Source: Candidatus Electronema aureum (GTDB taxonomy: Bacteria; Desulfobacterota; Desulfobulbia; Desulfobulbales; Desulfobulbaceae). From it: a DNA stretch of 11,558 bases. Numbering within the stretch: position 1 is the first letter of the stretch; every line of letters begins with the position of its first letter. The stretch spans positions 1 to 11,558 of the forward strand of contig NQJD01000052.1 of the NCBI GenBank assembly GCA_004284765.1, read 5' to 3'. The notes under the pieces are model-generated. The model made no database searches, was not told where the DNA came from, and was given only the letters and a program-made list of their open reading frames with translations. Below, in pieces: positions 1 to 11,558 of this stretch. The translations under genes and the position numbers were made by a program.

Positions 1-186
1 AGTATGCGAAGATGTCCTTATCACATTCGAGTTTGAAATACTCGCCGCAGATTTCCATAGTGATGACTTCTTCATCTGTTAAGGCAGGGTTAAATCCGCC
101 CCGCCGCAGCCGACATTGCTGCCTGATGACACCGTATTGTTCACAGACAAGCAGAAAGACAGCAATAACAAAATCGTCTCGATCCA
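1..186 (-). CDS. DDE transposase, N-terminal 62 codons only (IS982 / IS4-IS5-like); open at the window edge
   Basis: The minus-strand ATG at 186 lies 8 nt after AAGGAG (195-200). It translates to MDRDDFVIAVFLLVCEQYGVIRQQCRLRRGGFNPALTDEEVITMEICGEYFKLECDKDIFAY with no stop before position 1. It is absent from the ORF track because it is open-ended. The pattern 'RRGGF.P.L.DEEVITMEI.GEYF...DKDIFAY' is what I recall from N-termini of IS982/IS4-type transposases. The family call is from memory and is not verified. Confidence 0.7.
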
Positions 187-281
187 TTGGCGCACTCCTT
201 GTGAATAGGGCTTAGATACCACTATTCTACAGGATGCGCCCAATGGATCGGGCATCTTTTTTAAGAGTTGCACATTAGGTT
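1..281 (-). mobile_element. Inner (transposase-proximal) 281 bp of an IS element, left copy; the element continues leftward out of the window
   Basis: Bases 1-281 are the exact reverse complement of 11278-11558, compared base by base. Identity breaks at 282 versus 11277. The arm carries an RBS and the N-terminus of a transposase-like ORF reading toward position 1. Confidence 0.8.
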
Positions 282-312
282 AGCTCTTATTTCTGAAACC
301 GATGTTTTTTAT

Positions 313-1950: not shown

Positions 1951-3231
1951 TTAGAAGTTGTAACGTAGTCCGACAAAGGCATTGCTGTTGTCTTGGAAGC
2001 GGCCCCAGAAGGTATGCTCCTCGTCACCAAAAAAGAAATTCAAGCCGCCGTCAAGCTGCCAGTGATCGTTTAGCTTGTACTTGACCTTTGGTCGTACATT
2101 GCCGTCATTGTCCGTGGGCGAGTAATAGGCGAAGAGCGAGAGGGTTAGGTTCTGATTCATCATCAGCTTGGTCAGGCGCAGAGTGAGCAGATGCCGGTAT
2201 TCATCCCGCGTTTTCATGCCGGGCGGCAATGCCTGCTCGTAGTCGTCATAGCCGTCAATCGCCTCAATGTAATACTGCACGCTGCCGGTCAGCTCGTGGC
2301 CGATCTCGCGTTCGAATCCGGCGAGAATGCGGAATTCTGAAGGCCGGACAGCGGGATTGCTGCCGCTTTCGTCATCGGTGGAGTCATAATAGCCGAATTC
2401 GGCATTGCCGATGCCGCCGAACATGGGCGAACGCGCCGACGCGCCATAGACATTGAGCGGCGGATAGACTGCCTTGCCGGAAGCCATGTCCATGCCTTCC
2501 GGCTCCTGCCAGAAGCCGCTGTAGGCGTAGAGGGCCGCTTCGACCTGAGCAAAACTGCGGGAAAGCCGCATGGACAGCTCATCGTCGCGGAACCAGCGGT
2601 CCGGCTCGCTGTCCTCCATGACCATGTCCTGGCCGACAATCCGTCCGGCAGAGGGGTTGTAGTAGGAAAGCCGCTCGCCGTCAATGTACTCCGAGCCTTG
2701 GAAAAGCGGCGCATAGACGAGATCAAGCGAGTAATCGCCGAAAAAAAAGCCGGTCTTGATGACATTGGAAGCCTGCTTCAGGTATTCGTCATCGCGGCCA
2801 ATGAAGAAAGACTGCCAGTCCTTGGGAAACATGTCATTGATGAAGATCATGTCGCCAGTTCCCCAAGTGGAGACCATCCGGCCAATTTTGACATCAGCCC
2901 AATCTGTCGGGCGGAAGGAGACATTCAGCTCGCGGATGTCGGCATCCAGCTCCTCAGTCACTGCGTCAGCGAGCAGGTCGCCTTTAAACTGGACAAGGAA
3001 GGAGTCAAAATCGCGGCTCAGGCGCAGCTGCGTCCGCGCCTCGCCAATGCTCATCGCGTCTTCGTGCTCGTCATCAACGAGCCGCGCTCCGACGCGGGTT
3101 TCAGCGAAACCGAGCAGCTCCACCTCGTACTTGTCATAAAGCCGCTCGGCGAGCGTCTGCTTCTCATCCGCCGCCCAGACAGCAGCCGGGGGCAGGGCGC
3201 AGAGCAGCAGAGCGGCAATTTTTTTCTTCAT
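1951..3231 (-). CDS. Outer-membrane beta-barrel protein associated with the MMPL/LolA-like export cluster
   Basis: Signal peptide 'MKKKIAALLLCALPPAAVWAADE'. The sequence is rich in alternating aromatic/Gly/Asp beta-strand patterns and has a C-terminal 'GLRYNF' with terminal Phe, typical of OM barrels. The ORF track starts at 3237 (MIM...). The ATG at 3231 is better spaced from GAGGA. The gene starts 6-12 nt after the LolA-like stop. Confidence 0.7.
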   Translation of the reverse strand: MKKKIAALLLCALPPAAVWAADEKQTLAERLYDKYEVELLGFAETRVGARLVDDEHEDAMSIGEARTQLRLSRDFDSFLVQFKGDLLADAVTEELDADIRELNVSFRPTDWADVKIGRMVSTWGTGDMIFINDMFPKDWQSFFIGRDDEYLKQASNVIKTGFFFGDYSLDLVYAPLFQGSEYIDGERLSYYNPSAGRIVGQDMVMEDSEPDRWFRDDELSMRLSRSFAQVEAALYAYSGFWQEPEGMDMASGKAVYPPLNVYGASARSPMFGGIGNAEFGYYDSTDDESGSNPAVRPSEFRILAGFEREIGHELTGSVQYYIEAIDGYDDYEQALPPGMKTRDEYRHLLTLRLTKLMMNQNLTLSLFAYYSPTDNDGNVRPKVKYKLNDHWQLDGGLNFFFGDEEHTFWGRFQDNSNAFVGLRYNF

Positions 3232-3243
3232 GATCATCCTCGC

Positions 3244-4026
3244 TTATCTGATTTCACGGGGCGGACGGCGCAGGTAACGCTCGGTGAAGAGGTCTTCGGT
3301 CAGGCCGATGTTGTATTTGACATTGCTGAACTTGGACACGGTTGAGCTGCCTGCGGCGATGTCTGTCACCTTGGATTCCGTCACAGTCGGAATGCCGTCA
3401 ATTATTTCTGTTTTCACCGCCTCGACGATGCGGTATTCCTTGCCGTTTTTGTCGAGATAGACCGCCTTCACCGGCAGAAAGGTCTTTTTGTCAATCTGCA
3501 CGGTGTAGGAGGAGAATTCCACCTCTCCCGGCTTTTTCGGCGTGTTCTTGATCACATAATGCGTGTTTGTGCTTTGCGCCAGCTCGTGGCTGTCTTCAGC
3601 AAGATTGCGACCGGAAACATCCTCGTACATGAAATTGCTGCCGACAAAAGATGTGCGTTTGTCCGAGGCAGCGATGCGCTTGACCAAATCCAAGGCGGGC
3701 AGATACATCCAGCGGTCGTCGTCTTTGTCGGTGTTCTTATGTACCATGAAGACCATTTTGCTGACATCGCTTGGTTTCTTGAAATAAACGTAAAAGAGCT
3801 GCGCCCCGCCGTCCGCCTTGTCCTTGCGCAGGATGACAAATTCCCGCTCCCGCTCGCGTCCTTGGCTGTCCTTGATCGTCATCTTGACCTCAGCACGCCC
3901 GTCATCGCCGCCGTAATAAGCGGCCAAATTGGCCTTGCTGATGATCTCGTCCACGCTGGGATCAGCGGCAAAAGCCGGGGATACAACCAGCAGGGCCAGC
4001 AGACTGAACAGCATTGTTTTTTTCAT
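3244..4026 (-). CDS. LolA-like outer-membrane lipoprotein-sorting protein family (periplasmic)
   Basis: Signal peptide 'MKKTMLFSLLALLVVSPAFAADP'. The motifs 'DEIISKAN', 'WMYLPALDLVKRIAASDKRTSFVGSNFMYEDVSGR' match my recollection of the LolA_like family that accompanies MMPL/RND exporters. AGGAGG (4033-4038 on the plus strand as cctcct) lies 6 nt upstream of the ATG. Confidence 0.85.
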   Translation of the reverse strand: MKKTMLFSLLALLVVSPAFAADPSVDEIISKANLAAYYGGDDGRAEVKMTIKDSQGREREREFVILRKDKADGGAQLFYVYFKKPSDVSKMVFMVHKNTDKDDDRWMYLPALDLVKRIAASDKRTSFVGSNFMYEDVSGRNLAEDSHELAQSTNTHYVIKNTPKKPGEVEFSSYTVQIDKKTFLPVKAVYLDKNGKEYRIVEAVKTEIIDGIPTVTESKVTDIAAGSSTVSKFSNVKYNIGLTEDLFTERYLRRPPREIR

Positions 4027-4050
4027 GACTTTCCTCCTGTTTGATGAAAA

Positions 4051-4650
4051 TTAAACATCGCAAATAAACGATTTCAAAATACCGACAATTTTTCTCCCGT
4101 CCTCGAAAGAATAGAGACAGCTGTCAATCGTGACAGTATTTTTCTGAAGCGAAAGGAATTGCCAGAGCACTCCGTCAGTCACCACACCGTAAATCGGCCA
4201 GACTTGATTTCCTTCTTGCTCGTTGAATATCCGCGCCGCCTCCATTTCCGCGACACATTGCGCCAATCCGCTGCCCAAGTCTGATTTCTTAGCCTCCACC
4301 AGCATGACAACCGGCGCGGTGATGTAGAGCTGATTCTCGCTTTTACTGATCAATCCGTCCGGGTTGCCTGTCAGTCCTTTGCCTGCGTCAACGTTGAAGG
4401 TGTTTTGCAGAAAAAAGCTGACAGGCACATGCCGATCAAGCTCCATCAGCACATGATTGACGATCAGAGACTGCCGTCCGCTCTCCGTGTTGATGCGCAC
4501 CGCCTTCGGATAAGCCATGCGCATGGTCTCAATAAACCATTGCGATACTTCCGCAGGCGGAATGTGCGCATAGAGTCCGTCTGCGTCATGAATGCTGATG
4601 CCAAGCTCTTTATGCACTTGATCGAGTGTTTTAAAATCACTGTAGGACAT
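4051..4650 (-). CDS. PD-(D/E)xK nuclease-fold protein, HsdR N-terminal-domain-like (intact paralog)
   Basis: A 199-aa protein. The canonical motif order is 'NPDGLI' (PD), then a hydrophobic strand 'VVMLVEAKK' (ExK), then 'GLAQCVAEM' (Q in the following helix). An upstream 'NTESGRQSLIVNHVLMEL' helix is as in HSDR_N-type domains. It is about one third identical by eye to the decayed gene at 10762-11277. Confidence 0.7.
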   Translation of the reverse strand: MSYSDFKTLDQVHKELGISIHDADGLYAHIPPAEVSQWFIETMRMAYPKAVRINTESGRQSLIVNHVLMELDRHVPVSFFLQNTFNVDAGKGLTGNPDGLISKSENQLYITAPVVMLVEAKKSDLGSGLAQCVAEMEAARIFNEQEGNQVWPIYGVVTDGVLWQFLSLQKNTVTIDSCLYSFEDGRKIVGILKSFICDV

Positions 4651-4678
4651 TCTGTCTCACCCTTCCACCGCATGAATT

Positions 4679-4698
4679 TTTCAGCTTGCAGGCTGAAA
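4679..4698. other. 7-bp hairpin between the repeat array and the nuclease gene start
   Basis: tttcagc (4679-4685), a 6-nt loop, then gctgaaa (4692-4698). No U-tract follows on either strand, so it is not a canonical terminator. Confidence 0.3.
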
Positions 4699-4700
4699 CA

Positions 4701-5070
4701 AGGCCATTCTTTTTCCCTGCGCTCAATTCCTGTTCAAGAATGAGGCTGTCATTTTTTCCATCGGACAGCCCCTCTTAACGAACGCGCCTCCTCTCTTTTA
4801 AAGAGAAAGACTGCTCTTAACGAATGGACTGCTTCATTTTTAAAATTGACATCTCCTCTTTAAAAGAGGGCTTGTCCATTTTTTAAGAGAACGGCTCCAC
4901 TCAAAAAGTGGGGAGGCACTCTTTAAAAACTCACGACCGCTTTTCACGAAAGGGCTGCTCATCTTTTTAAACGGAGACGTTCCTGCAACGAACGGAGAGC
5001 TGCGTTTCAAGGAGGCCGTGGCCTGTCCTTTAAATTTGACCGTGCATTTTTCAATTAAATTATAAATATG
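4701..5070. repeat. Degenerate tandem array, about 8.5 units of 41-45 bp
   Basis: Units start at 4701, 4743, 4785, 4827, 4871, 4914, 4955, 4996 and 5041 (partial). Hand alignment gives unit 4701 vs 4743 at 26/42 identical and 4743 vs 4785 at 24/42, with an identical 11-mer ctcttaacgaa. Each unit has a G/C-rich start (rGCTGyTCA), a T4-6 run, an A-rich stretch, and a 3' block like CCTCTTAACGAAyGG. Confidence 0.75.
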
Positions 5071-5121
5071 TTTACCTTAAGAGGTGTCTATCTTGAAATA
5101 AGTACATAGTATGTGTTGTTT

Positions 5122-6027
5122 TTATGGTATATCAAAAATTACCCCCCAGTTAGATGGCGATCCTGTATATAATATATCACCATCTGTCTCATAATCTTCT
5201 TTTGGTTCCCATGCCCCGAAGAAATCCTCAGTGTGACCTTCAGTCATAATGTGTAAAATGTTAGGAGGCATTGGCCATTTCCTTCTCAAATAATCTAACC
5301 TAGACCAATCTTCATCATCATAAAAGACATTCTTCCCAATCGTAATGCGGCTTAAATCATCGATATATTTAGTTTTGAATTTAAAGTTATTTTTATTGGC
5401 ATTTTTTATTATGGATTTTTCCAAAATTTCAGAGTTAAACTGTCCAAGTTCGACCAGAAGCGTGCAAAGCTCTTTAATATCAAATTCGTTATCCAAACCA
5501 TAATCACCGCTGCTTGGTGCTTTATAAGATATAAGCTCACGACATGCTTTTTTAAAAATGACTTTTTCTTTTAATTCGCTTGACATGTTTTTGTCAAAAT
5601 GGCCAAGATGATCAAAGGTGATATTAATCACCTTTGAATGGTCCATACTAAATAACCGCCCGTCAGCCCAAGGAATATTGGGCAATGTTGCCACAACGCA
5701 ACGGCATGCTGAAAAAATAGCGTAATATTCCAAGTAGGATGTAACAACTCTTAAATTTTTTTCGATAGCGAACTCTAAACTCATAAGTTGAAGAGTAGCC
5801 TGAAATACCATCTTGGCAGAAAAATATATTCTGCATAGCCATTCAGAATTCGTATCTTCTGACCAATCATTGGTAATCTTTGAATATTCTTGAAACATAC
5901 GGGCTGCATTATTCGCGCATATTTTATCATCGAAAACACGAGTTAATTCTCTAAAATTATAAAACCATTTTATTTCTGAAAAACCATGATAAGTTGACAG
6001 TATTTTTCTTGTTGCTATTGAACTCAT
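5122..6027 (-). CDS. AT-rich orphan protein, 301 aa, function unknown (weak HEPN-like features)
   Basis: A long uninterrupted ORF in a region where sampled 60-nt lines are 27% (5341-5400) and 32% (5701-5760) G+C. No clear Shine-Dalgarno precedes the ATG at 6027, so the start is uncertain. The helical segment 'SYLEYYAIFSACRCVVATLP' is followed by 'GRLFSMDH' (R124-x5-H130). Confidence 0.6.
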   Translation of the reverse strand: MSSIATRKILSTYHGFSEIKWFYNFRELTRVFDDKICANNAARMFQEYSKITNDWSEDTNSEWLCRIYFSAKMVFQATLQLMSLEFAIEKNLRVVTSYLEYYAIFSACRCVVATLPNIPWADGRLFSMDHSKVINITFDHLGHFDKNMSSELKEKVIFKKACRELISYKAPSSGDYGLDNEFDIKELCTLLVELGQFNSEILEKSIIKNANKNNFKFKTKYIDDLSRITIGKNVFYDDEDWSRLDYLRRKWPMPPNILHIMTEGHTEDFFGAWEPKEDYETDGDILYTGSPSNWGVIFDIP

Positions 6028-6076
6028 CGCTGTTGTTTGTATAGTTTTTTTTATGGATTTGAATAGTTCACAATAT

Positions 6077-6114
6077 TGTCCCCGACAATATCTAAATGGA
6101 TATTGTCGGGGACA
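6077..6114. repeat. Perfect 16-bp-stem inverted repeat (6-nt loop) at the MMPL stop / AT-rich insert junction
   Basis: tgtccccgacaatatc (6077-6092), loop taaatg, then gatattgtcggggaca (6099-6114), which is the exact reverse complement. ATATTGTC occurs three times: 6073-6080 forward, 6084-6091 reverse, 6100-6107 forward. Confidence 0.85.
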
Positions 6115-6129
6115 CAGCTGCCTGTTGCC

Positions 6130-8748
6130 TCAGCCCTTCTCCGCAAACTCCTTCAGCTCCTTCTTGAACACCCAGCCCTTCATCACCGTCAGCAAGGCGG
6201 GCAAAATCCACAGGGTCGCAAAGCCGGAGTAGAACATAATTGAGGCCAAGAATACGCCCACAGTCTGATACGGCACCAGCGGGGCCAGCAGCAACGGAGT
6301 GAATCCCACCGCTATCACGATGATATTGCGGAGTATTGCCCTTGCTGGCTCATCAAACATGTCGCGGACAGCGGCAGCCCAATCGCCAGTTTTGGCCATC
6401 GTCATCCGAGTACGTTGGAGGAAGTGGATAGCAAAATCAACCGCCAAGCCCAAGGTCAGCGAGGACAGCACTGCTACCGGCATGTCGTAATCCTTGCCGA
6501 TCCAGCCGAGGATGCCGTAAATAAACACGACAGTGAAAGTTAGCGGAATCATCGACAGCAGACCCCATACTACAGAACGGAACATAAACGCCATCATGAT
6601 AAAAACCATGACAAAGCTGGAGAGAAAGGAATTTCTCATGCCTGTTGTCATCTTTGCTTGCCAGATCACGTTAATGTAAGTCAATCCTGCCCATTCATGC
6701 TTTAATTCCACCGGCGGCGGATTTTTTGCAAAATACTGTTCCACGTCGGTAAGCACCCGCTCGGTGTCTTTGTTATCACCGCTTCGCAGCTGAATCCAAA
6801 GATTGGCCTTCGTGTAATCCGGTGTGACTAAATGCCAGAGGTCATCCGGCTTGTGGCTGTTCTGGAAGGAAATTAACGTCTCAGCCACAGCGTTGACTGT
6901 ATCCGGGATAACAAACCGCTGCGGATTACCTTCATACAGCTCCTGATGCACCTTTTTTACTACATCGCTGATGCTGTTGGATTTCCCTACATCGCCCTGT
7001 TTGGCCAAGTGTGCTTGGAAATCGGCGAGATAGCGTAGCATGTCGGGCCGCTTGAAGATTTCCTTGCGGCTGCGAACTTTTTCCAAAGCCTCGATAGCCG
7101 CCGTCCAAAATTGGTAGCCTGCTTCATCTTCTGCCGGAACATTGTCTAACTCACTGTTCCACGCCTCCGCCAAGCTGTCAAGCAGTGCTGCGCCGGGCTG
7201 CCCTGCCGCAGCTTCCTCGGCCACAGCCTTCAGTGCGGTTTCTTTCAAATCACCAGCCAGCAGCTCTAGTTCCTTTTTCAGCAGATCAGCAGCTTCGGCA
7301 GAGGTCAGCTCCTTAGCCTCACCGGAGAGCACAAGATAGGCTTCGTAGGTGCCGCCAAAATGGCTATTCAATACCCGGTCGGCCACGCGGACTTCATGAC
7401 TTTTCTTGAACCACTTCACCGGGTTGTCATTGACCTGAATCATCGAAATACCGATCACACCCACCAGCATAATGCCGATGTTTACGCCGATCACTAACCA
7501 AGGTTTGCCGGATGAAGTTTTACCGATCCAGCGCAAATGCCGGTTCAGCGGTGAGCTTGCATGAGCCGGATGCTCTGCGGATGCACCAAAATTCTCCAGA
7601 CTGCTTTCTGGAATCAACATGACATAAGCCGGAATAAACAGCATAGTCAGCAGCCAAGCCAGCATAATGCCGATACCAACAAAAATACCAAAAGACTGAA
7701 TCGGTGGAATCGGCGTGGTGGCTAAAGAAGCAAAACCAGCTGCCGAGGTCAGCGAGGTAAAAAACATGGAGACAAACAGCTCGCTCATCACGTGCATGAT
7801 GGCTTTCTTTTTGTCTCGGAAACGATGATACGTATCAAAAAATTCAGAAAGAATATGCACCGAATCTGTCACCGCGATCGGCATAATGAAGATCGGGATC
7901 ATCGAACTCATGATGTGCAAGGTATGACCAGTGCCGATCAGCAGACCCATCGTGATGATCACCGAACAAACCGCCAGAATCATCGGTGCAGTGATCAGCT
8001 GCAAATTACGGAAGAAAAAATACATCAGCAGGAAAATCATCAACATGGCCATTGGTGCAGAAATAGCCATCTGAATGAACATTTCCTTGCCAAAGGTGTC
8101 CTCTGCTACCGGCAGACCCGTGATGTGGAATTCATCATCGCCCGCGCCGATCTCTTTAATCTTGGCCCGCAGTCGCTCCGCCACTGTGTGAGCAAAATCT
8201 TTTTTGGTAATCGGTAAATAAATGGCCAGAGCTTTACCGTCCTCCGAAACCATCGTCCCTTTGAGCAGCGGATTCGCCAAAGCTGCGTCGCGAATTTTCA
8301 AAGCCTCTTCGCGGGTAGTCGGCGGTTCCTTCATCAGCCACTCAAAACGTACTTGTCCCAGTCCGGCTTGAATGATGTTATCGACGTTGTCCGGGGCAAT
8401 GATGTCACGGCCAACCACCCGCCGTTCCGCATTGTTAGGGTCAGCCAGCGTGGCCGCGAATTTGCTCAGAGCATGGGCTTTTTTGAGTGTCGCGGGGTTG
8501 AATACGCCGTCAGGATGCTTCTCATTGACCACGCCTACAGCTACCACATCGTGTAGGCCAAATTCCTTCTTGGTCAGGTCATGAAAAACTCGCACTCGTT
8601 CATGCTCTGAAAGCATGTTCTCCGGGTCTGTATCAACATGAACCCGCACGATGAATGCTCCGATGACTAATGTGGCCAAGAGCATGGCGGCAATGACCGC
8701 TTTGGGTTTTTGCAAAGAAAAACCCACCATTATTTCCGCTAACCGCAT
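6130..8748 (-). CDS. MMPL-family / RND-superfamily exporter (COG1033-type, two 6-TM bundles with large periplasmic loops)
   Basis: An 872-aa protein. AGGAGG lies 5 nt upstream of the ATG at 8748. It has an N-terminal TM helix, then a periplasmic domain, then a TM cluster ('MAISAPMAMLMIFLLMYFFFRN...'). A second periplasmic domain and second TM cluster follow ('MVFIMMAFMFRSVVWGLLSMIPL...LGLAVDFAIHF'). This is the typical duplicated MMPL architecture. Confidence 0.85.
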   Translation of the reverse strand: MRLAEIMVGFSLQKPKAVIAAMLLATLVIGAFIVRVHVDTDPENMLSEHERVRVFHDLTKKEFGLHDVVAVGVVNEKHPDGVFNPATLKKAHALSKFAATLADPNNAERRVVGRDIIAPDNVDNIIQAGLGQVRFEWLMKEPPTTREEALKIRDAALANPLLKGTMVSEDGKALAIYLPITKKDFAHTVAERLRAKIKEIGAGDDEFHITGLPVAEDTFGKEMFIQMAISAPMAMLMIFLLMYFFFRNLQLITAPMILAVCSVIITMGLLIGTGHTLHIMSSMIPIFIMPIAVTDSVHILSEFFDTYHRFRDKKKAIMHVMSELFVSMFFTSLTSAAGFASLATTPIPPIQSFGIFVGIGIMLAWLLTMLFIPAYVMLIPESSLENFGASAEHPAHASSPLNRHLRWIGKTSSGKPWLVIGVNIGIMLVGVIGISMIQVNDNPVKWFKKSHEVRVADRVLNSHFGGTYEAYLVLSGEAKELTSAEAADLLKKELELLAGDLKETALKAVAEEAAAGQPGAALLDSLAEAWNSELDNVPAEDEAGYQFWTAAIEALEKVRSRKEIFKRPDMLRYLADFQAHLAKQGDVGKSNSISDVVKKVHQELYEGNPQRFVIPDTVNAVAETLISFQNSHKPDDLWHLVTPDYTKANLWIQLRSGDNKDTERVLTDVEQYFAKNPPPVELKHEWAGLTYINVIWQAKMTTGMRNSFLSSFVMVFIMMAFMFRSVVWGLLSMIPLTFTVVFIYGILGWIGKDYDMPVAVLSSLTLGLAVDFAIHFLQRTRMTMAKTGDWAAAVRDMFDEPARAILRNIIVIAVGFTPLLLAPLVPYQTVGVFLASIMFYSGFATLWILPALLTVMKGWVFKKELKEFAEKG

Positions 8749-8780: not shown

Positions 8781-9068
8781 TCAGGCAATGCCGCAGAAGA
8801 GCTGTTTCATGGTCTTCATCAGCTCGATGATCCTTTTATCTGCAATTCGGTTGTAGATGAAATTGGCTTCTTTACGGGAAGCGACAAGACCTTGATTACG
8901 CATAATATTGAGATGCTGACTGATGTTTGCACCGCTGGTCTCCAAGCTCTCCCGGATTTCACTCACTGACAGCTCCTGATGTTGGAGCAGGCAGAGGATT
9001 TGCAGCCGGATGGGATGGGATATTGATTTGAGCAGTAAGGCTAACTCGTTGACTTCTTTATCCGCCAT
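8781..9068 (-). CDS. ArsR/SmtB-family winged-helix transcriptional regulator
   Basis: A 95-aa protein. 'LKSISHPIRLQILCLLQHQELSVSEIRESLETSGANISQHLNIMRNQGLVASRKEANFIYNRI' is the classic ArsR HTH core. The ELCVCD-type metal site is absent, with only a single Cys in 'ILCLL'. GGAGA lies 5 nt upstream of the ATG. The gene ends 32 nt upstream of the MMPL gene. Confidence 0.85.
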   Translation of the reverse strand: MADKEVNELALLLKSISHPIRLQILCLLQHQELSVSEIRESLETSGANISQHLNIMRNQGLVASRKEANFIYNRIADKRIIELMKTMKQLFCGIA

Positions 9069-9189: not shown

Positions 9190-9447
9190 TTAGAGATTGG
9201 CATCTGGGGTTTTATAATACTTTGCGTTTTCGTCGTGTTCCGGGCCTTTTTCATTTAAGACACGGTTAATGCGGCCCGGCATTTTGGTCACGGGTTCATC
9301 CATCATCAGCTCGTAGCCGATTGAAAAAGCTAAGACAACGGCAACAGTGATGAATGTTTTTTTCTTTCGATACTCTGGTGGCAGAAAAAACATGCCGACG
9401 AGCGCGGCACTCATGATGTAGAGATGATACTGGATAAGCAACGACAT
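9190..9447 (-). CDS. Small membrane protein, 85 aa, unknown function
   Basis: AAAGGAG lies 6 nt upstream of the ATG at 9447. It has two hydrophobic segments ('IMSAALVGMFFL', 'FITVAVVLAFSIGY') and a hydrophilic C-terminal tail. I recognise no family. Confidence 0.55.
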   Translation of the reverse strand: MSLLIQYHLYIMSAALVGMFFLPPEYRKKKTFITVAVVLAFSIGYELMMDEPVTKMPGRINRVLNEKGPEHDENAKYYKTPDANL

Positions 9448-10316: not shown

Positions 10317-10546
10317 GCCTCTGCCTCGCCTTGAGAAGTGTTTTTGTTGAACGGGAAGCCTGCGCCGGGTATTATACCTGACCGGCGGGCAAAGCACCGC
10401 CCGATTTTGCACCTGTTGCTTTTTCGGCTGAAGAATTGTGGGGGAGAGTGTCCTGCGGCCGACCTTGGGAAGCTGATCAACTGCCGGGCAGGGCCAAGCA
10501 ATGTAGTAGTCATAAGGATTTTTTCTCTATCGAACTGGTTAATTGT

Positions 10547-10759
10547 ATGCGTACTTCAATAGCTGAAAACAACAATTTTCGATGTCCAATATGTGGTGAC
10601 GATCTGACGCAAGATAAGGCTGGTCGTGGATTTGTGAGGCATAAAACCAATCCAGATTGTAAGTATGGGAATGGCGAGAGAGATGATACTGATAACTCGC
10701 AACCAACGATACGAAGAGCACAAGCGGATCGTGCGTGCAGCAAAGCACATAAAGCGTAG
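10547..10759 (+). CDS. Small zinc-ribbon-like protein (70 aa), hypothetical
   Basis: 'FRCPICGDDL...RHKTNPDCKYG' forms a CxxC...H/C pattern. The stop TAG (10757-10759) lies 2 nt before the ATG of the downstream PD-(D/E)xK pseudogene. The SD is weak. The ORF track's TTG start at 10436 adds an implausible-looking leader. Confidence 0.4.
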   Translation: MRTSIAENNNFRCPICGDDLTQDKAGRGFVRHKTNPDCKYGNGERDDTDNSQPTIRRAQADRACSKAHKA

Positions 10760-10761
10760 TT

Positions 10762-11277
10762 ATGCCCTACAGCGACTTTGATCTGAAATCCGTCAAGCAG
10801 AAGCTCGGCGTTCATCTGCGTGAGCAGCAGGGTTTGTTCGCTTCCGTGCCCTGCGCTGATCTTCGTCCGGCATTTCATGAGATTCTGCAAGAGAATGTGC
10901 CGCTGGCCCGCGCTGTCAACACGGAGAAAGCCCGCTCGGAGCTGATTATCTCCCCTGTGTTGGTGGAGCTGCGGAAGATGCTTCTGCACCGCATCAGCCT
11001 GTTTTCCGGTATCGAGTTCAATGTTGATAAAGCGCAAGGGTTGAACGGTTTCTGTGATTTCATCATCAGCGCGTCGCCGGAACAGTTTATTCTGAACAGC
11101 CCGGTCATTGCTGTGGTTGAGGCGAAAAATGAAAACATCATCGGCGGACTTGGGCAGTGCATCGCGGAAATGGTGCGGCAAAAATCTTCAATGAAGCGGA
11201 GAAAAGCAAGAATGCTGGAAACGTTTACGGCCTTGTGACCAGCGGCACCGCGTGGAAATTTCTGAAAATAGAAGAAC
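10762..11277 (+). pseudogene. PD-(D/E)xK / HsdR-N-like nuclease paralog, frameshifted and 3'-truncated by the IS
   Basis: The frame from 10762 gives 'MPYSDFDLKSVKQKLGV...CDFII...VIAVVEAKN...GLGQCIAEMV', then runs into junk and a stop. The homologous continuation 'AAKIFNEAEKSKNAGNVYGLVTSGTAWKFLKIEEQ' is in the frame of ORF 11157. This implies a 1-nt loss near 11173-11176. Homology to the intact paralog ends at 11277, where the IS arm begins, and about 30 C-terminal residues are missing. Confidence 0.75.
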
Positions 11278-11558
11278 AACCTAATGTGCAACTCTTAAAA
11301 AAGATGCCCGATCCATTGGGCGCATCCTGTAGAATAGTGGTATCTAAGCCCTATTCACAAGGAGTGCGCCAATGGATCGAGACGATTTTGTTATTGCTGT
11401 CTTTCTGCTTGTCTGTGAACAATACGGTGTCATCAGGCAGCAATGTCGGCTGCGGCGGGGCGGATTTAACCCTGCCTTAACAGATGAAGAAGTCATCACT
11501 ATGGAAATCTGCGGCGAGTATTTCAAACTCGAATGTGATAAGGACATCTTCGCATACT
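11278..11558 (+). mobile_element. Inner (transposase-proximal) 281 bp of the same IS element, right copy, inverted relative to the left copy
   Basis: It is the exact reverse complement of 1-281. It interrupts the PD-(D/E)xK paralog reading frame at 11277/11278. Confidence 0.8.
11373..11558 (+). CDS. DDE transposase, N-terminal 62 codons only (same as 1-186); open at the window edge
   Basis: The ATG at 11373 lies 8 nt after AAGGAG (11359-11364). The translation is identical to the left copy, with no stop before the window end. Confidence 0.7.

What the first reader, a model, noticed from the sequence alone, without database searches (positions are those of the whole stretch)
4027..6129. A 2.1-kb compositionally foreign, co-oriented module splits a conserved arsR-MMPL-LolA-like-OM-barrel export operon
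The exporter gene (stop at 6130) and the LolA-like gene (start at 4026) belong to a recurring envelope-export cluster. As I recall these clusters, the two genes are normally neighbours. Here about 2.1 kb lies between them on the same strand. Composition changes sharply. Hand counts of 60-nt lines give 27% and 32% G+C inside 5122-6027, against 48% in the MMPL gene (6301-6360) and 67% in the OM-barrel gene (2401-2460). The insert carries four elements in transcription order: a perfect 16-bp hairpin, an AT-rich 301-codon orphan ORF without an SD, a 370-bp degenerate repeat array, and a PD-(D/E)xK nuclease-like gene. The nuclease gene's stop (4051) is only 24 nt from the LolA-like start, which leaves that gene's AGGAGG RBS intact. 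An orphan plus a nuclease dropped into a housekeeping operon looks like a small defence or addiction island. I cannot match it to any named system.
Basis: partly seen in the sequence, partly recalled or inferred. Interest (0 to 1): 0.75.

Follow-up and report, generated by a model that had tools for sequence, protein, structure and literature searches.

The report
Variable gene hotspot inside cable-bacterium operon
The 2.1-kb stretch is not one foreign module but a mosaic: only a 1-kb AT-rich piece carrying one uncharacterised gene is a recent import, and it sits in a spot between two transporter genes where every cable-bacterium genome examined carries a different set of same-direction accessory genes.

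Summary
The window comes from Candidatus Electronema aureum GS, a cable bacterium.

The interval is not a single two-gene module.
- **Composition.** The foreign signal is confined to about 5053-6076. This piece holds the 301-aa gene (GC 0.34, GC3 0.30).
- **Nuclease gene.** It has native composition (GC3 0.585). It sits beside the LolA-like gene in most Electronema and Electrothrix relatives, and its divergence tracks that of the flanking genes.
- **Hairpin.** It is a lineage-conserved RNA stem-loop after the MMPL stop, with compensatory changes.
- **"Degenerate repeats".** These are 13 in-phase 21-nt units, conserved in all six Electronema loci.

Two non-cable Desulfobulbales have MMPL and LolA-like genes 30-91 bp apart. 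In cable bacteria the gap holds 1-9 kb of strain-specific cargo, always co-oriented. Cargo includes toxin-antitoxin pairs, an nSTAND NTPase, RNase H and PD-(D/E)xK paralogs.

The 301-aa protein is not an orphan. About 380 relatives were found. They are lone genes, usually lower in GC than their hosts, and often on mobile elements or near defence genes. The fold matched nothing in the two libraries I could search.

The two protein families never co-occur elsewhere. My reading is a cassette-replacement hotspot, with a candidate single-gene defence protein as this strain's cargo. The function of that protein is untested.

The parts
6130..8748 (-). MMPL/HAE3-type RND transporter gene; upstream conserved flank of the hotspot
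   Evidence: Pfam MMPL 1.4e-40 and NCBIfam HAE3 2.2e-55. 81% aa identity to relatives L003/L004.
6077..6114 (-). Conserved RNA stem-loop just after the MMPL stop (16-bp perfect stem, 6-nt loop, no U-tract); native, not part of the import
   Evidence: I16. Homologous hairpins follow the MMPL stop in L038, L104 and L004, and precede RNase H in L003. 96% of cells are paired, 5 of 16 pairs show compensatory changes, and the U-G wobbles are valid only on the sense strand. Not called as a terminator.
5053..6076 (-). The truly foreign AT-rich segment (GC 0.33): short leader, 301-aa gene and a 69-bp tail of GC 0.23
   Evidence: Composition. Homology to relatives stops after the hairpin and resumes at about 5052.
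5122..6027 (-). 301-aa protein of an uncharacterised, horizontally scattered single-gene family; candidate defence or accessory protein
   Evidence: No Pfam, NCBIfam, PADLOC or credible PHROG hit. 208 and 381 relatives. 37 invariant residues. AF2 model pLDDT 87, pTM 0.90, all-alpha, with no PDB or BFVD match. No conserved neighbour. Lower GC than host in most loci. On an ICE in L107.
4746..5052 (.). Electronema-conserved non-coding element: about 34-bp leader plus 13 in-phase 21-nt units, consensus GTCCnTTTnTAAAGAGnAGnn, alternating two subtypes (42-nt super-period)
   Evidence: periodicity and units. (67-92% nt identity in L036, L004, L003, L103 and L100/L101, and only in this gap). No Rfam hit. 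No covariation support for one RNA fold.
4051..4650 (-). 199-aa PD-(D/E)xK nuclease-like gene; long-standing resident of this gap in cable bacteria
   Evidence: PADLOC PD_DExK 6.9e-44. D98/E119/K121 motif. AF2 pLDDT 82.5 with weak restriction-endonuclease-like fold hits. Orthologues 79-93% identical at the same place in L002, L003, L004, L103 and L104. Native GC3.
3244..4026 (-). LolA_like (TP_0789-like) periplasmic carrier gene; downstream conserved flank
   Evidence: Pfam LolA_like 1.9e-51. AGGAGG RBS at 4032-4037.
1951..3237 (-). Putative outer-membrane barrel gene of the operon (weak DUF1302 C-terminal match)
   Evidence: Syntenic in all relatives.
8781..9068 (-). ArsR-family regulator at the head of the operon
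   Evidence: Pfam HTH_5 3e-14. Syntenic in relatives and outgroups.
10762..11277 (+). Second, frameshifted paralogue (about 40% identity) of the 199-aa nuclease gene, cut off by an IS copy
   Evidence: (PD_DExK 3.9e-31).

Best explanation
The interval 4027-6129 is the E. aureum GS allele of a cable-bacteria-specific cassette-replacement hotspot. The hotspot lies between the MMPL and LolA-like genes of an ArsR-MMPL-LolA-like-barrel-p80 operon.

**Shown**
- The ancestral state, seen in two non-cable Desulfobulbales, is adjacency (30-91 bp).
- In Electronema and Electrothrix the junction has a lineage-conserved backbone. It consists of an RNA stem-loop after the MMPL stop, a roughly 300-bp array of phased 21-nt units (Electronema only), and one to three PD-(D/E)xK nuclease paralogues next to the LolA-like gene.
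- Around that backbone each genome carries different cargo, always in the operon's orientation.
- In this genome the only recent cargo is a roughly 1.0-kb AT-rich segment encoding the 301-aa protein.

**Inferred**
- Cargo is exchanged by recombination in the conserved flanks and backbone, as in Neisseria minimal mobile elements. There is no dedicated recombinase.
- Orientation is kept because the downstream LolA-like and barrel genes depend on read-through transcription, and so does the promoter-less, SD-less cargo.
- The 301-aa protein acts alone. It is most likely a defence or abortive-infection-type accessory protein with many invariant charged residues (possibly an enzyme).
- The 199-aa protein is an active metal-dependent nuclease inherited vertically here. 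It is not a partner of the 301-aa protein.
For: **Adjacency versus cargo**
- Adjacent in outgroups L105 and L106.
- Different co-oriented cargo in nine cable-bacterial alleles:
  - L002, L003, L004
  - L038 and L036
  - L100/V4, with VapB-like plus PIN, and L103/JC
  - L104, L110, L112

**The backbone is native**
- Hairpin homology and covariation.
- The array is conserved and found only in this gap.
- p199 identity tracks the flanking genes. For example, in L104 p199 is 79% identical, LolA 77% and barrel 70%.

**Only the 301-aa gene is foreign**
- GC3 0.30, against 0.55-0.73 for neighbours.

**No pairing**
- 0 of 31 and 0 of 64 loci.

**The p301 family behaves as mobile accessory genes**
- No conserved neighbour.
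- GC below the flanks in most of 28 loci.
- The nearest homologue (61%) sits two genes from an ICE integrase.
- One homologue lies in a plasmid accessory region.
- About 11-12 of 88 immediate neighbours, and about 5-6 of 64 genes lying 3-6 kb away, hit PADLOC models at 1e-10.

**No mobility genes in the gap**
- No integrase or transposase was called inside any of the gaps.
Against: - No function of the 301-aa protein is demonstrated. It has no hit to any PADLOC model and none in phage genomes.
- The defence-neighbour rate has no proper genome-wide control. Distal genes in the same loci hit at a similar rate. Some neighbours are housekeeping genes such as ThiC, IMPDH and GMP synthase.
- The recombination mechanism is inferred from synteny only. 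No breakpoints were mapped statistically.
- The role of the 21-nt array is unexplained.
- Persistent presence of PD-(D/E)xK genes at a hotspot could mean they take part in generating it.
- Relatives are mostly metagenome contigs. Only a dozen alleles were seen.
Confidence: 0.62

Rival explanations
1. First reader's reading. Hairpin, 301-aa gene, repeat array and nuclease gene arrived together as one foreign two-gene defence or addiction module.
For: They are contiguous and co-oriented, and they lie between genes that are adjacent in outgroups. Sister alleles carry TA and defence-type genes.
Against: - The composition differs sharply between the two genes: GC3 0.30 versus 0.585.
- The nuclease gene, hairpin and array are present in relatives without the 301-aa gene.
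- The families never co-occur in 31 plus 64 other loci.
Confidence: 0.04
2. The PD-(D/E)xK nucleases create the hotspot, possibly with the stem-loop or the 21-nt array as cis sites. This would be a nuclease-driven, orientation-specific gene-capture system, integron-like but without a tyrosine recombinase, or a set of homing-endonuclease-like selfish genes that stimulate local recombination.
For: - One to three paralogues sit in the gap in 8 of 9 cable-bacterial alleles.
- The family is multi-copy, has no conserved neighbour, and often lies just downstream of co-oriented genes in 64 metagenome loci.
- All cargo is unidirectional.
- The array leader is duplicated on both sides of RNase H in L003.
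Against: - V4 has cargo and the array but no nuclease gene.
- Electrothrix has nucleases and cargo but no array.
- Only one strong hairpin occurs per locus, not one per cassette.
- No repeated boundary motif was found. The 8-nt direct repeat flanking the 301-aa ORF is at chance level, reached in 375 of 2000 shuffles.
Confidence: 0.08
3. The backbone genes, and perhaps the 301-aa gene, are functional additions to the envelope-export operon. They would be a cable-bacteria-specific elaboration of the transporter system rather than selfish or defence cargo.
For: - Co-orientation and tight spacing. The p199 stop is 24 nt from the LolA-like start here and overlaps it by 4 nt in L002.
- p199-type, CoA_binding_2, Fer4 and p202-type genes recur in Electrothrix alleles.
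- The array is conserved between MMPL and LolA-like genes in all Electronema alleles.
Against: - A cytoplasmic restriction-endonuclease-like protein has no obvious role in lipid or lipoprotein export.
- V4 lacks it.
- The same family occurs in dozens of unrelated contexts.
- The 301-aa gene is unique to this strain at this site, and it is foreign in composition.
Confidence: 0.1
4. The 301-aa gene is a neutral or selfish passenger with no benefit to this host. It might be an ICE or plasmid maintenance or anti-defence gene stranded by illegitimate recombination, possibly not expressed.
For: - No SD and no convincing promoter of its own.
- The nearest homologue is on an ICE.
- It is absent from all sister genomes at this site.
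- Several homologues lie among housekeeping genes.
Against: - The ORF is intact and full-length, with all 37 family-invariant residues.
- The family is under strong purifying selection across phyla, with 58% mean column identity.
Confidence: 0.16

Closest known systems
Minimal mobile elements (MMEs) of Neisseria (Saunders & Snyder 2002; Snyder et al. 2004; both listed in the references of PMC1538595; the definition is from my own knowledge)
   Same: A site between two conserved genes holds different whole-gene cassettes in different strains. There are no integrase or transposase genes in the site, so exchange presumably runs through homologous recombination in the flanks.
   Different: - Here the site is inside an operon and every cassette keeps the operon's orientation.
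- The site has its own conserved backbone (stem-loop, 21-nt array, nuclease genes).
- Natural transformation is not known for cable bacteria.
- Recombination is not demonstrated.
Defence islands and core-genome defence hotspots (own knowledge: Makarova 2011; P. aeruginosa and E. coli hotspot surveys of 2023)
   Same: Strain-variable clusters of TA modules, STAND NTPases and nucleases lie between conserved genes. Cargo is low in GC.
   Different: - The gap is small (1-9 kb), intra-operonic and strictly unidirectional, with no mobile-element hallmarks.
- Cargo also includes non-defence-looking genes (CoA-binding, Fer4, RNase H).
- No cargo was tested against phage.
Integron cassette arrays / CALINs
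   Same: Arrays of promoter-less, co-oriented, mostly small genes, including TA pairs, are read from an upstream promoter. Two distant homologues of the 301-aa gene (L008, L012) are followed by long imperfect palindromes that I recall as attC-like (not tested against an attC model).
   Different: There is no integrase and there are no attC-like sites at cassette boundaries here. Only one strong hairpin occurs per locus, and it lacks the R''/R' consensus boxes.
'PD-DExK' CRISPR-associated ancillary profile (PADLOC PDLC01472) within the PD-(D/E)xK nuclease superfamily
   Same: Strong profile match over residues 55-196, E=6.9e-44. The D...ExK motif is present. Weak restriction-endonuclease-like fold hits.
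   Different: - No cas genes or CRISPR array in the window or in L001.
- An extra conserved N-terminal domain of about 50 residues (MxYSDF...).
- No Pfam or NCBIfam family.
Intercistronic stem-loops that stabilise upstream mRNA (own knowledge: REP in malE-malF)
   Same: A stable stem-loop without a U-tract lies directly after the stop codon of an upstream cistron. The structure is conserved while the sequence varies.
   Different: It is single-copy, not a dispersed REP family as far as could be seen. Its effect on mRNA is untested.
Iteron or centromere-like arrays of ~20-bp tandem repeats (own knowledge: plasmid origins, parC sites)
   Same: About 13 units repeat at exactly two helical turns (21 bp). 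Units have partial dyad symmetry (CTCTTT/AAAGAG; reverse-strand self-hits). One indel between relatives is exactly one unit long.
   Different: - The array is chromosomal and lies inside an operon.
- Units are only about 40-50% alike.
- No Rep or Par protein gene is nearby.
- No binding protein is known.

Membership tests
PD-(D/E)xK nuclease superfamily (199-aa protein) | Catalytic D ... (D/E)-x-K motif on the core strands | tested here: met
   D98, E119-A-K121. D98 and K121 are invariant in both alignments. E119 is nearly invariant: 2 of 23 sequences (A3) / 30 (A6) sequences carry G or Q there.
PD-(D/E)xK nuclease superfamily (199-aa protein) | Restriction-endonuclease-like alpha/beta fold | tested here: inconclusive
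   AF2 model pLDDT 82.5. Foldseek hits include a putative restriction endonuclease domain protein (9y1l, prob 0.96), BpuSI and NucC. All E-values are 5.6e-3 or worse, and the top hits are mitoribosomal chains.
PD-(D/E)xK nuclease superfamily (199-aa protein) | Metal-dependent nuclease activity | not testable with these tools
   Needs biochemistry.
CRISPR-associated ancillary gene ('PD_DExK', PADLOC PDLC01472) | Profile match | tested here: met
   E=6.9e-44, covering 140 of 146 profile positions.
CRISPR-associated ancillary gene ('PD_DExK', PADLOC PDLC01472) | Location next to cas genes or a CRISPR array | tested here: not met
   No cas domains in the window or in the 20.9-kb L001. No repeat-spacer array in the window.
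Two-gene toxin-antitoxin / addiction or defence module (301-aa + 199-aa) | The two gene families recur together in other genomes | tested here: not met
   tblastn found 0 of 31 p301-family loci (327 kb) with a p199 relative, and 0 of 64 p199-family loci (454 kb) with a p301 relative.
Two-gene toxin-antitoxin / addiction or defence module (301-aa + 199-aa) | Shared origin (composition, co-inheritance) | tested here: not met
   GC3 is 0.30 versus 0.585. p199 is present without p301 in L002, L003, L004, L103 and L104.
Known anti-phage defence families (301-aa protein) | Match to a described defence protein model | tested here: not met
   No PADLOC hit at E<=1. No Pfam or NCBIfam hit. The only PHROG match has E=0.08.
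Defence-island resident (301-aa family, guilt by association) | Family members preferentially lie next to known defence genes | tested here: inconclusive
   About 11-12 of 88 immediate neighbours (26 loci) hit PADLOC models at 1e-10: PDC-S06, PD-Lambda-2 B and C, bSEFIR, PDC-S09, mad2 and others. About 5-6 of 64 genes 3-6 kb away also hit. There was no genome-wide baseline.
Integron cassette array / CALIN | attC recombination sites at cassette boundaries | tested here: not met
   Hairpin scan of nine cable-bacterial loci found one strong hairpin per locus, after the MMPL stop only.
Integron cassette array / CALIN | Nearby integron integrase | tested here: not met
   No Phage_integrase gene is adjacent to the gap in L001, L103, L104 or L110. 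The one in L100 lies 5 kb upstream, beyond unrelated genes.
Minimal mobile element-type hotspot | Different gene content between the same two conserved genes in different strains | tested here: met
   Nine distinct alleles plus two empty outgroup sites.
Minimal mobile element-type hotspot | No mobility genes inside the site | tested here: met
   No transposase or integrase was called in any gap (same calls).
Minimal mobile element-type hotspot | Exchange by homologous recombination in the flanks | not tested
   One hint: the array is 92% identical between the window and L004, while flanking genes are 77-83% identical. No formal recombination test was run.
Intrinsic (Rho-independent) terminator (hairpin 6077-6114) | GC-rich stem followed by a U-tract | tested here: not met
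   The stem is followed by AUAUUGUG. The scan did not call it.
CRISPR array (21-nt repeats 4746-5018) | Near-identical repeats separated by unique spacers | tested here: not met
   Units abut without spacers and are only about 40-50% alike.
Described RNA families (Rfam 15) | Covariance-model match | tested here: not met
   The only hit in 3900-6300 is CopA at 22.6 bits against a gathering score of 60, E=0.56, on the hairpin.

The most novel reading that the evidence does not exclude
Cable bacteria may carry a previously undescribed, recombinase-free, orientation-specific gene-capture site inside an envelope-export operon. In this reading, resident PD-(D/E)xK nucleases and conserved cis elements (the post-MMPL RNA/DNA stem-loop and, in Electronema, the phased 21-nt array) promote the insertion or swapping of promoter-less cassettes. 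The 301-aa protein would be one captured member of a new single-gene immunity family with a fold that matched nothing in the libraries searched.
Probability: 0.08. Interest if true: 0.85.

Novelty: new variant of a known kind. Interest (0 to 1): 0.5.

Why it matters
- **Cable-bacterial genome evolution.** Cable bacteria are uncultured in pure culture, and their genome dynamics are little studied. An intra-operon hotspot that grew from about 30-90 bp to 1-9 kb only in this lineage, always in one orientation, is a compact and easily surveyed model. It can show how accessory and defence genes turn over without classic mobile-element machinery.
- **The 301-aa family.** About 380 cluster representatives are scattered across several phyla. 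It is an untested candidate single-gene defence or accessory family. Its confidently predicted fold matched nothing in the two structure libraries I could search.
- **The 21-nt array.** It is a conserved non-coding element with no known counterpart, and it may be a protein-binding scaffold.
- **Scan method.** Contiguity plus co-orientation does not make a module. Composition and synteny separated one recent import from three native elements.

Tried and rejected
- **Two-gene module.** Rejected on composition, synteny and lack of co-occurrence.
- **Hairpin as the insert boundary or as an attC site.** Rejected. Homologous hairpins with compensatory changes occur in relatives lacking the insert. 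No hairpins lie at other cassette boundaries.
- **Repeat array as part of the insert or of the nuclease gene's mobile unit.** Rejected.
  - In V4 and JC it lies about 70 bp after the MMPL stop, and V4 has no nuclease gene.
  - It is absent upstream of 60+ other family members. The periodic signal in L039/L040 is an unrelated 42-nt REP-like tandem repeat.
- **Array as a structured RNA.**
  - MFE z = -2.5.
  - The RNAalifold covariation term is +2.4, which is unfavourable.
  - No Rfam hit.
  - GGA motifs are not conserved, so a CsrA sponge is unlikely (by eye).
- **Array as ArsR operator copies.** The motif CNTTCGTTAAGAG occurs only inside the array. The arsR promoter carries a different palindrome, TTAAGT-N4-ACTTAA. 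Unresolved, but unsupported.
- **Target-site duplication around the 301-aa ORF.** AAACAACA occurs at 6031-6038 and 5114-5121. This is at chance level, reached in 375 of 2000 shuffles.
- **Function of the 301-aa protein.** All of the following were negative:
  - PDB by sequence.
  - Foldseek against PDB and BFVD.
  - Domain fusions: one 798-aa relative, with no Pfam domain.
  - Phage genomes.
  - A canonical HEPN Rx4-6H motif is not conserved (by eye).
- **The 199-aa protein against PDB by sequence.** Nothing meaningful.


Full report
**Source and layout**

The window is from the closed chromosome of Candidatus Electronema aureum GS (GCA_942492785.1, OW818638.1). This is a freshwater cable bacterium whose closed genome is described in PMC10030654.

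On the minus strand the window carries, in order:
- p85
- ArsR (8781-9068)
- MMPL/HAE3 (6130-8748)
- a 301-aa ORF (5122-6027)
- a 199-aa ORF (4051-4650)
- a LolA_like gene (3244-4026)
- a barrel gene (1951-3237)
- p80 (1681-1923)

**Checking the observation**

- The 16-bp perfect hairpin lies at 6077-6092/6099-6114.
- The 301-aa ORF has no SD before its ATG.
- The 199-aa ORF stops 24 nt before the LolA-like ATG, and the AGGAGG is intact.
- The hand GC counts are about right.
- The repeats are real although TRF misses them. Autocorrelation peaks at lags 21, 42 and 63 (0.42-0.48, against a shuffle 95th percentile of 0.34). The sequence resolves into 13 in-phase 21-nt units, 5018 down to 4746, with consensus GTCCnTTTnTAAAGAGnAGnn.
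- The 199-aa protein matches the PADLOC PD_DExK profile at 6.9e-44 and carries D98...E119-A-K121. Its AF2 model (pLDDT 82.5) gives weak restriction-endonuclease-like fold hits.

Two parts of the observation fail.
- **Composition.** The foreign signal is confined to about 5053-6076 (GC 0.33). Within it the ORF has GC3 0.30 and the 69-bp tail has GC 0.23. The nuclease gene (GC3 0.585) looks like MMPL (0.599) and ArsR (0.594).
- **"Orphan".** The ORF has 208 relatives in one search and 381 cluster representatives in an exhaustive HMM search. Nearly all are 285-305 aa single-domain proteins.

**Synteny**

Two non-cable Desulfobulbales have ArsR-MMPL-LolA_like-barrel with MMPL and LolA_like only 30 and 91 bp apart. 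These are Desulfolithobacter L105 and an unnamed 4.6-Mb genome, L106.

In every cable-bacterial locus retrieved, the junction is filled, and filled differently.

| Locus | Content of the gap |
|---|---|
| Electronema sp. V4 (L100) | array, VapB-like, PIN |
| Electronema sp. JC (L103) | array, DUF4160, DUF2442, 331 aa, p199 orthologue |
| L004 | RNase H, array, 181 aa, 63 aa, DUF2442, 331 aa, p199, DUF4160, DUF2442 |
| L003 | Metallophos fragment, nSTAND/TPR NTPase, array, RNase H, p202 (27% paralogue), p199 |
| L002 | nSTAND, DUF2442 fragment, p199 |
| L038 | p199-like gene directly after MMPL |
| L036 | array, p199 (98% aa), then p80; LolA_like and barrel deleted |
| Electrothrix laxa (L104) | 7 cargo genes |
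| Electrothrix AW1 (L110) | 13 cargo genes |
| L112 | 5 cargo genes |

The three Electrothrix-type loci include p199-type and p202-type nucleases, CoA_binding_2, Fer4, RNase H, an AAA_15 ATPase, Unstab_antitox and MqsA-like antitoxins, DUF1963 and NYN.

Every called cargo gene in every allele is on the operon strand. No gap contains an integrase or a transposase.

**What is native**

*The p199 nuclease gene.* Its identity to orthologues tracks that of the flanking core genes.

| Locus | p199 | LolA | barrel | MMPL |
|---|---|---|---|---|
| L002 | 93% | 89% | 87% | - |
| L003 | 82% | 90% | 81% | 81% |
| L104 | 79% | 77% | 70% | - |

This indicates co-inheritance since before the Electronema/Electrothrix split.

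*The hairpin.* It aligns with hairpins after the MMPL stop in L038, L104 and L004, and with one upstream of RNase H in L003.
- 96% of cells are paired.
- 5 of 16 pairs have compensatory changes.
- No shuffle out of 500 reaches the observed covariation score.
- U-G wobbles are valid only on the sense strand.

It is therefore a conserved RNA stem-loop. It has no U-tract. V4/JC and L003 have unrelated strong hairpins at the same place, which suggests the structure rather than the sequence is selected.

*The 21-nt array.*
- It is 67-92% identical in L036, L004, L003, L103 and L100/L101.
- In V4 and JC it lies about 70 bp after the MMPL stop.
- nhmmer finds it nowhere else in 0.96 Mb of fetched loci.
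- One indel between relatives is exactly 21 columns.
- Reverse-strand self-hits reflect unit dyad symmetry.
- It has no Rfam match and no covariation support for a single RNA fold.
- It is not detectable in Electrothrix.

Its function is unexplained. A phased protein-binding array is my best guess.

**What is foreign**

Homology to relatives stops after the hairpin and resumes at about 5052. The import is therefore about 1.0 kb: essentially the 301-aa gene with AT-rich flanks.

The family has these properties.
- 37 invariant residues, many of them charged.
- A confident all-alpha model (pLDDT 87, pTM 0.90).
- No sequence or Foldseek match in PDB or BFVD.
- No Pfam, NCBIfam or PADLOC hit.
- No conserved neighbour in 31 genome loci spanning several bacterial phyla.
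- Gene GC below the flanks in most loci, by up to 21 points.
- The nearest homologue (61%) lies two genes from the integrase of an ICE that carries a relaxase and a T4CP.
- Three of 72,556 plasmids carry one, in an accessory region with TA genes and transposases. No phage carries one.
- About 11-12 of 88 immediate neighbours hit PADLOC defence models at 1e-10, as do about 5-6 of 64 genes 3-6 kb away. This is suggestive, but it lacks a genome-wide baseline.

**No pairing**

tblastn finds no p199 relative in the 31 p301-family loci and no p301 relative in the 64 p199-family loci.

The p199 family itself has no conserved neighbour and is often multi-copy per locus. The window holds a second, frameshifted copy at 10762-11277, truncated by an IS.

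**Interpretation**

The interval is one allele of a cable-bacteria-specific, unidirectional cassette-replacement hotspot. It has a conserved backbone. In concept it is closest to Neisseria minimal mobile elements and to core-genome defence hotspots (otherwise my own knowledge).

The steps below are inferences, not demonstrated results.
- Exchange runs by recombination in conserved flanks. One hint is that the array is 92% identical to L004 while flanking genes are 77-83% identical. Another is that the array leader is duplicated around RNase H in L003.
- Orientation is maintained by the need for read-through transcription.
- The 301-aa protein is a stand-alone defence-type protein.

A role for the resident nucleases in generating the hotspot is not excluded. 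It is weakened by V4, which has cargo but no nuclease, and by the lack of boundary motifs.

**Verdict**

It is a new variant of a known kind. Interest is moderate, driven by three things:
- the lineage-specific intra-operon hotspot
- an uncharacterised, widely scattered protein family
- an unexplained conserved 21-nt phased array

Noticed in passing
window 1-288 and 11272-11558 (L001 3735-4756 and 15740-16762): The whole window is bracketed by two inverted copies of a ~1,023-bp stretch shared by both IS copies (the full element may be longer) (DDE_Tnp_1_3 transposase, 297 aa), 99.2% identical. The first and last 281 nt of the window are perfectly complementary. The arrangement is composite-transposon-like and encloses the entire operon plus the prepilin peptidase gene.
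   Followed up: partly
window 10762-11277 (+), with a small upstream ORF at 10436-10759: A second PD-(D/E)xK paralogue (about 40% identity to the 199-aa protein; PADLOC 3.9e-31) is frameshifted and truncated by the right-hand IS. It is preceded by a small ORF with a CPICG...C motif that looks like a zinc ribbon.
   Followed up: partly
L036 199-1428: A metagenome relative has the array and a 98%-identical (amino-acid) p199 gene followed directly by p80. The LolA-like and barrel genes are cleanly deleted between window positions 4041 and 1927.
   Followed up: no
L003 6296-6601 and 7293-7364: The first ~70-100 bp of the 21-nt array element occur twice, on either side of the hairpin-RNase H unit. 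This looks like a footprint of rearrangement within the hotspot.
   Followed up: partly
L008 6910-6963 and L012 1044-1098: Homologues of the 301-aa gene in a Colwellia MAG and a Halomonas genome are followed by 15-bp-stem palindromes with 22-23-nt loops (…GTTGGTT…AACCAAC…). They look attC-like, so the gene may travel as an integron cassette in some hosts.
   Followed up: no
L040 5314-5481 (also L039): A 42-nt tandem repeat (4 copies, 98% identical) contains a GGGCGAAC...GTTCGCCC palindrome and lies about 500 bp upstream of a p199 homologue. It is unrelated in sequence to the Electronema array.
   Followed up: yes
L107 301-11659: The closest homologue of the 301-aa protein sits in the cargo end of an integrative conjugative element. 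The order is integrase, 316 aa, homologue, DUF4062, UPRTase, HTH_17, ParA, RHH antitoxin, relaxase, T4CP.
   Followed up: no
window 9190-9447 (-): An 85-aa small membrane-like protein gene just upstream of arsR has a same-length (85-aa) gene at the same position in V4 and JC (sequence similarity not checked). Its family is unknown.
   Followed up: no
window 5106-5135 (-): A sigma-70-like TTGATA-16/18-CATACT/TACTAT match overlaps the 3' end of the 301-aa ORF and points towards the array and nuclease gene. The imported segment might supply a promoter for downstream genes. The count of such sites in the region is not above the shuffle expectation.
   Followed up: no
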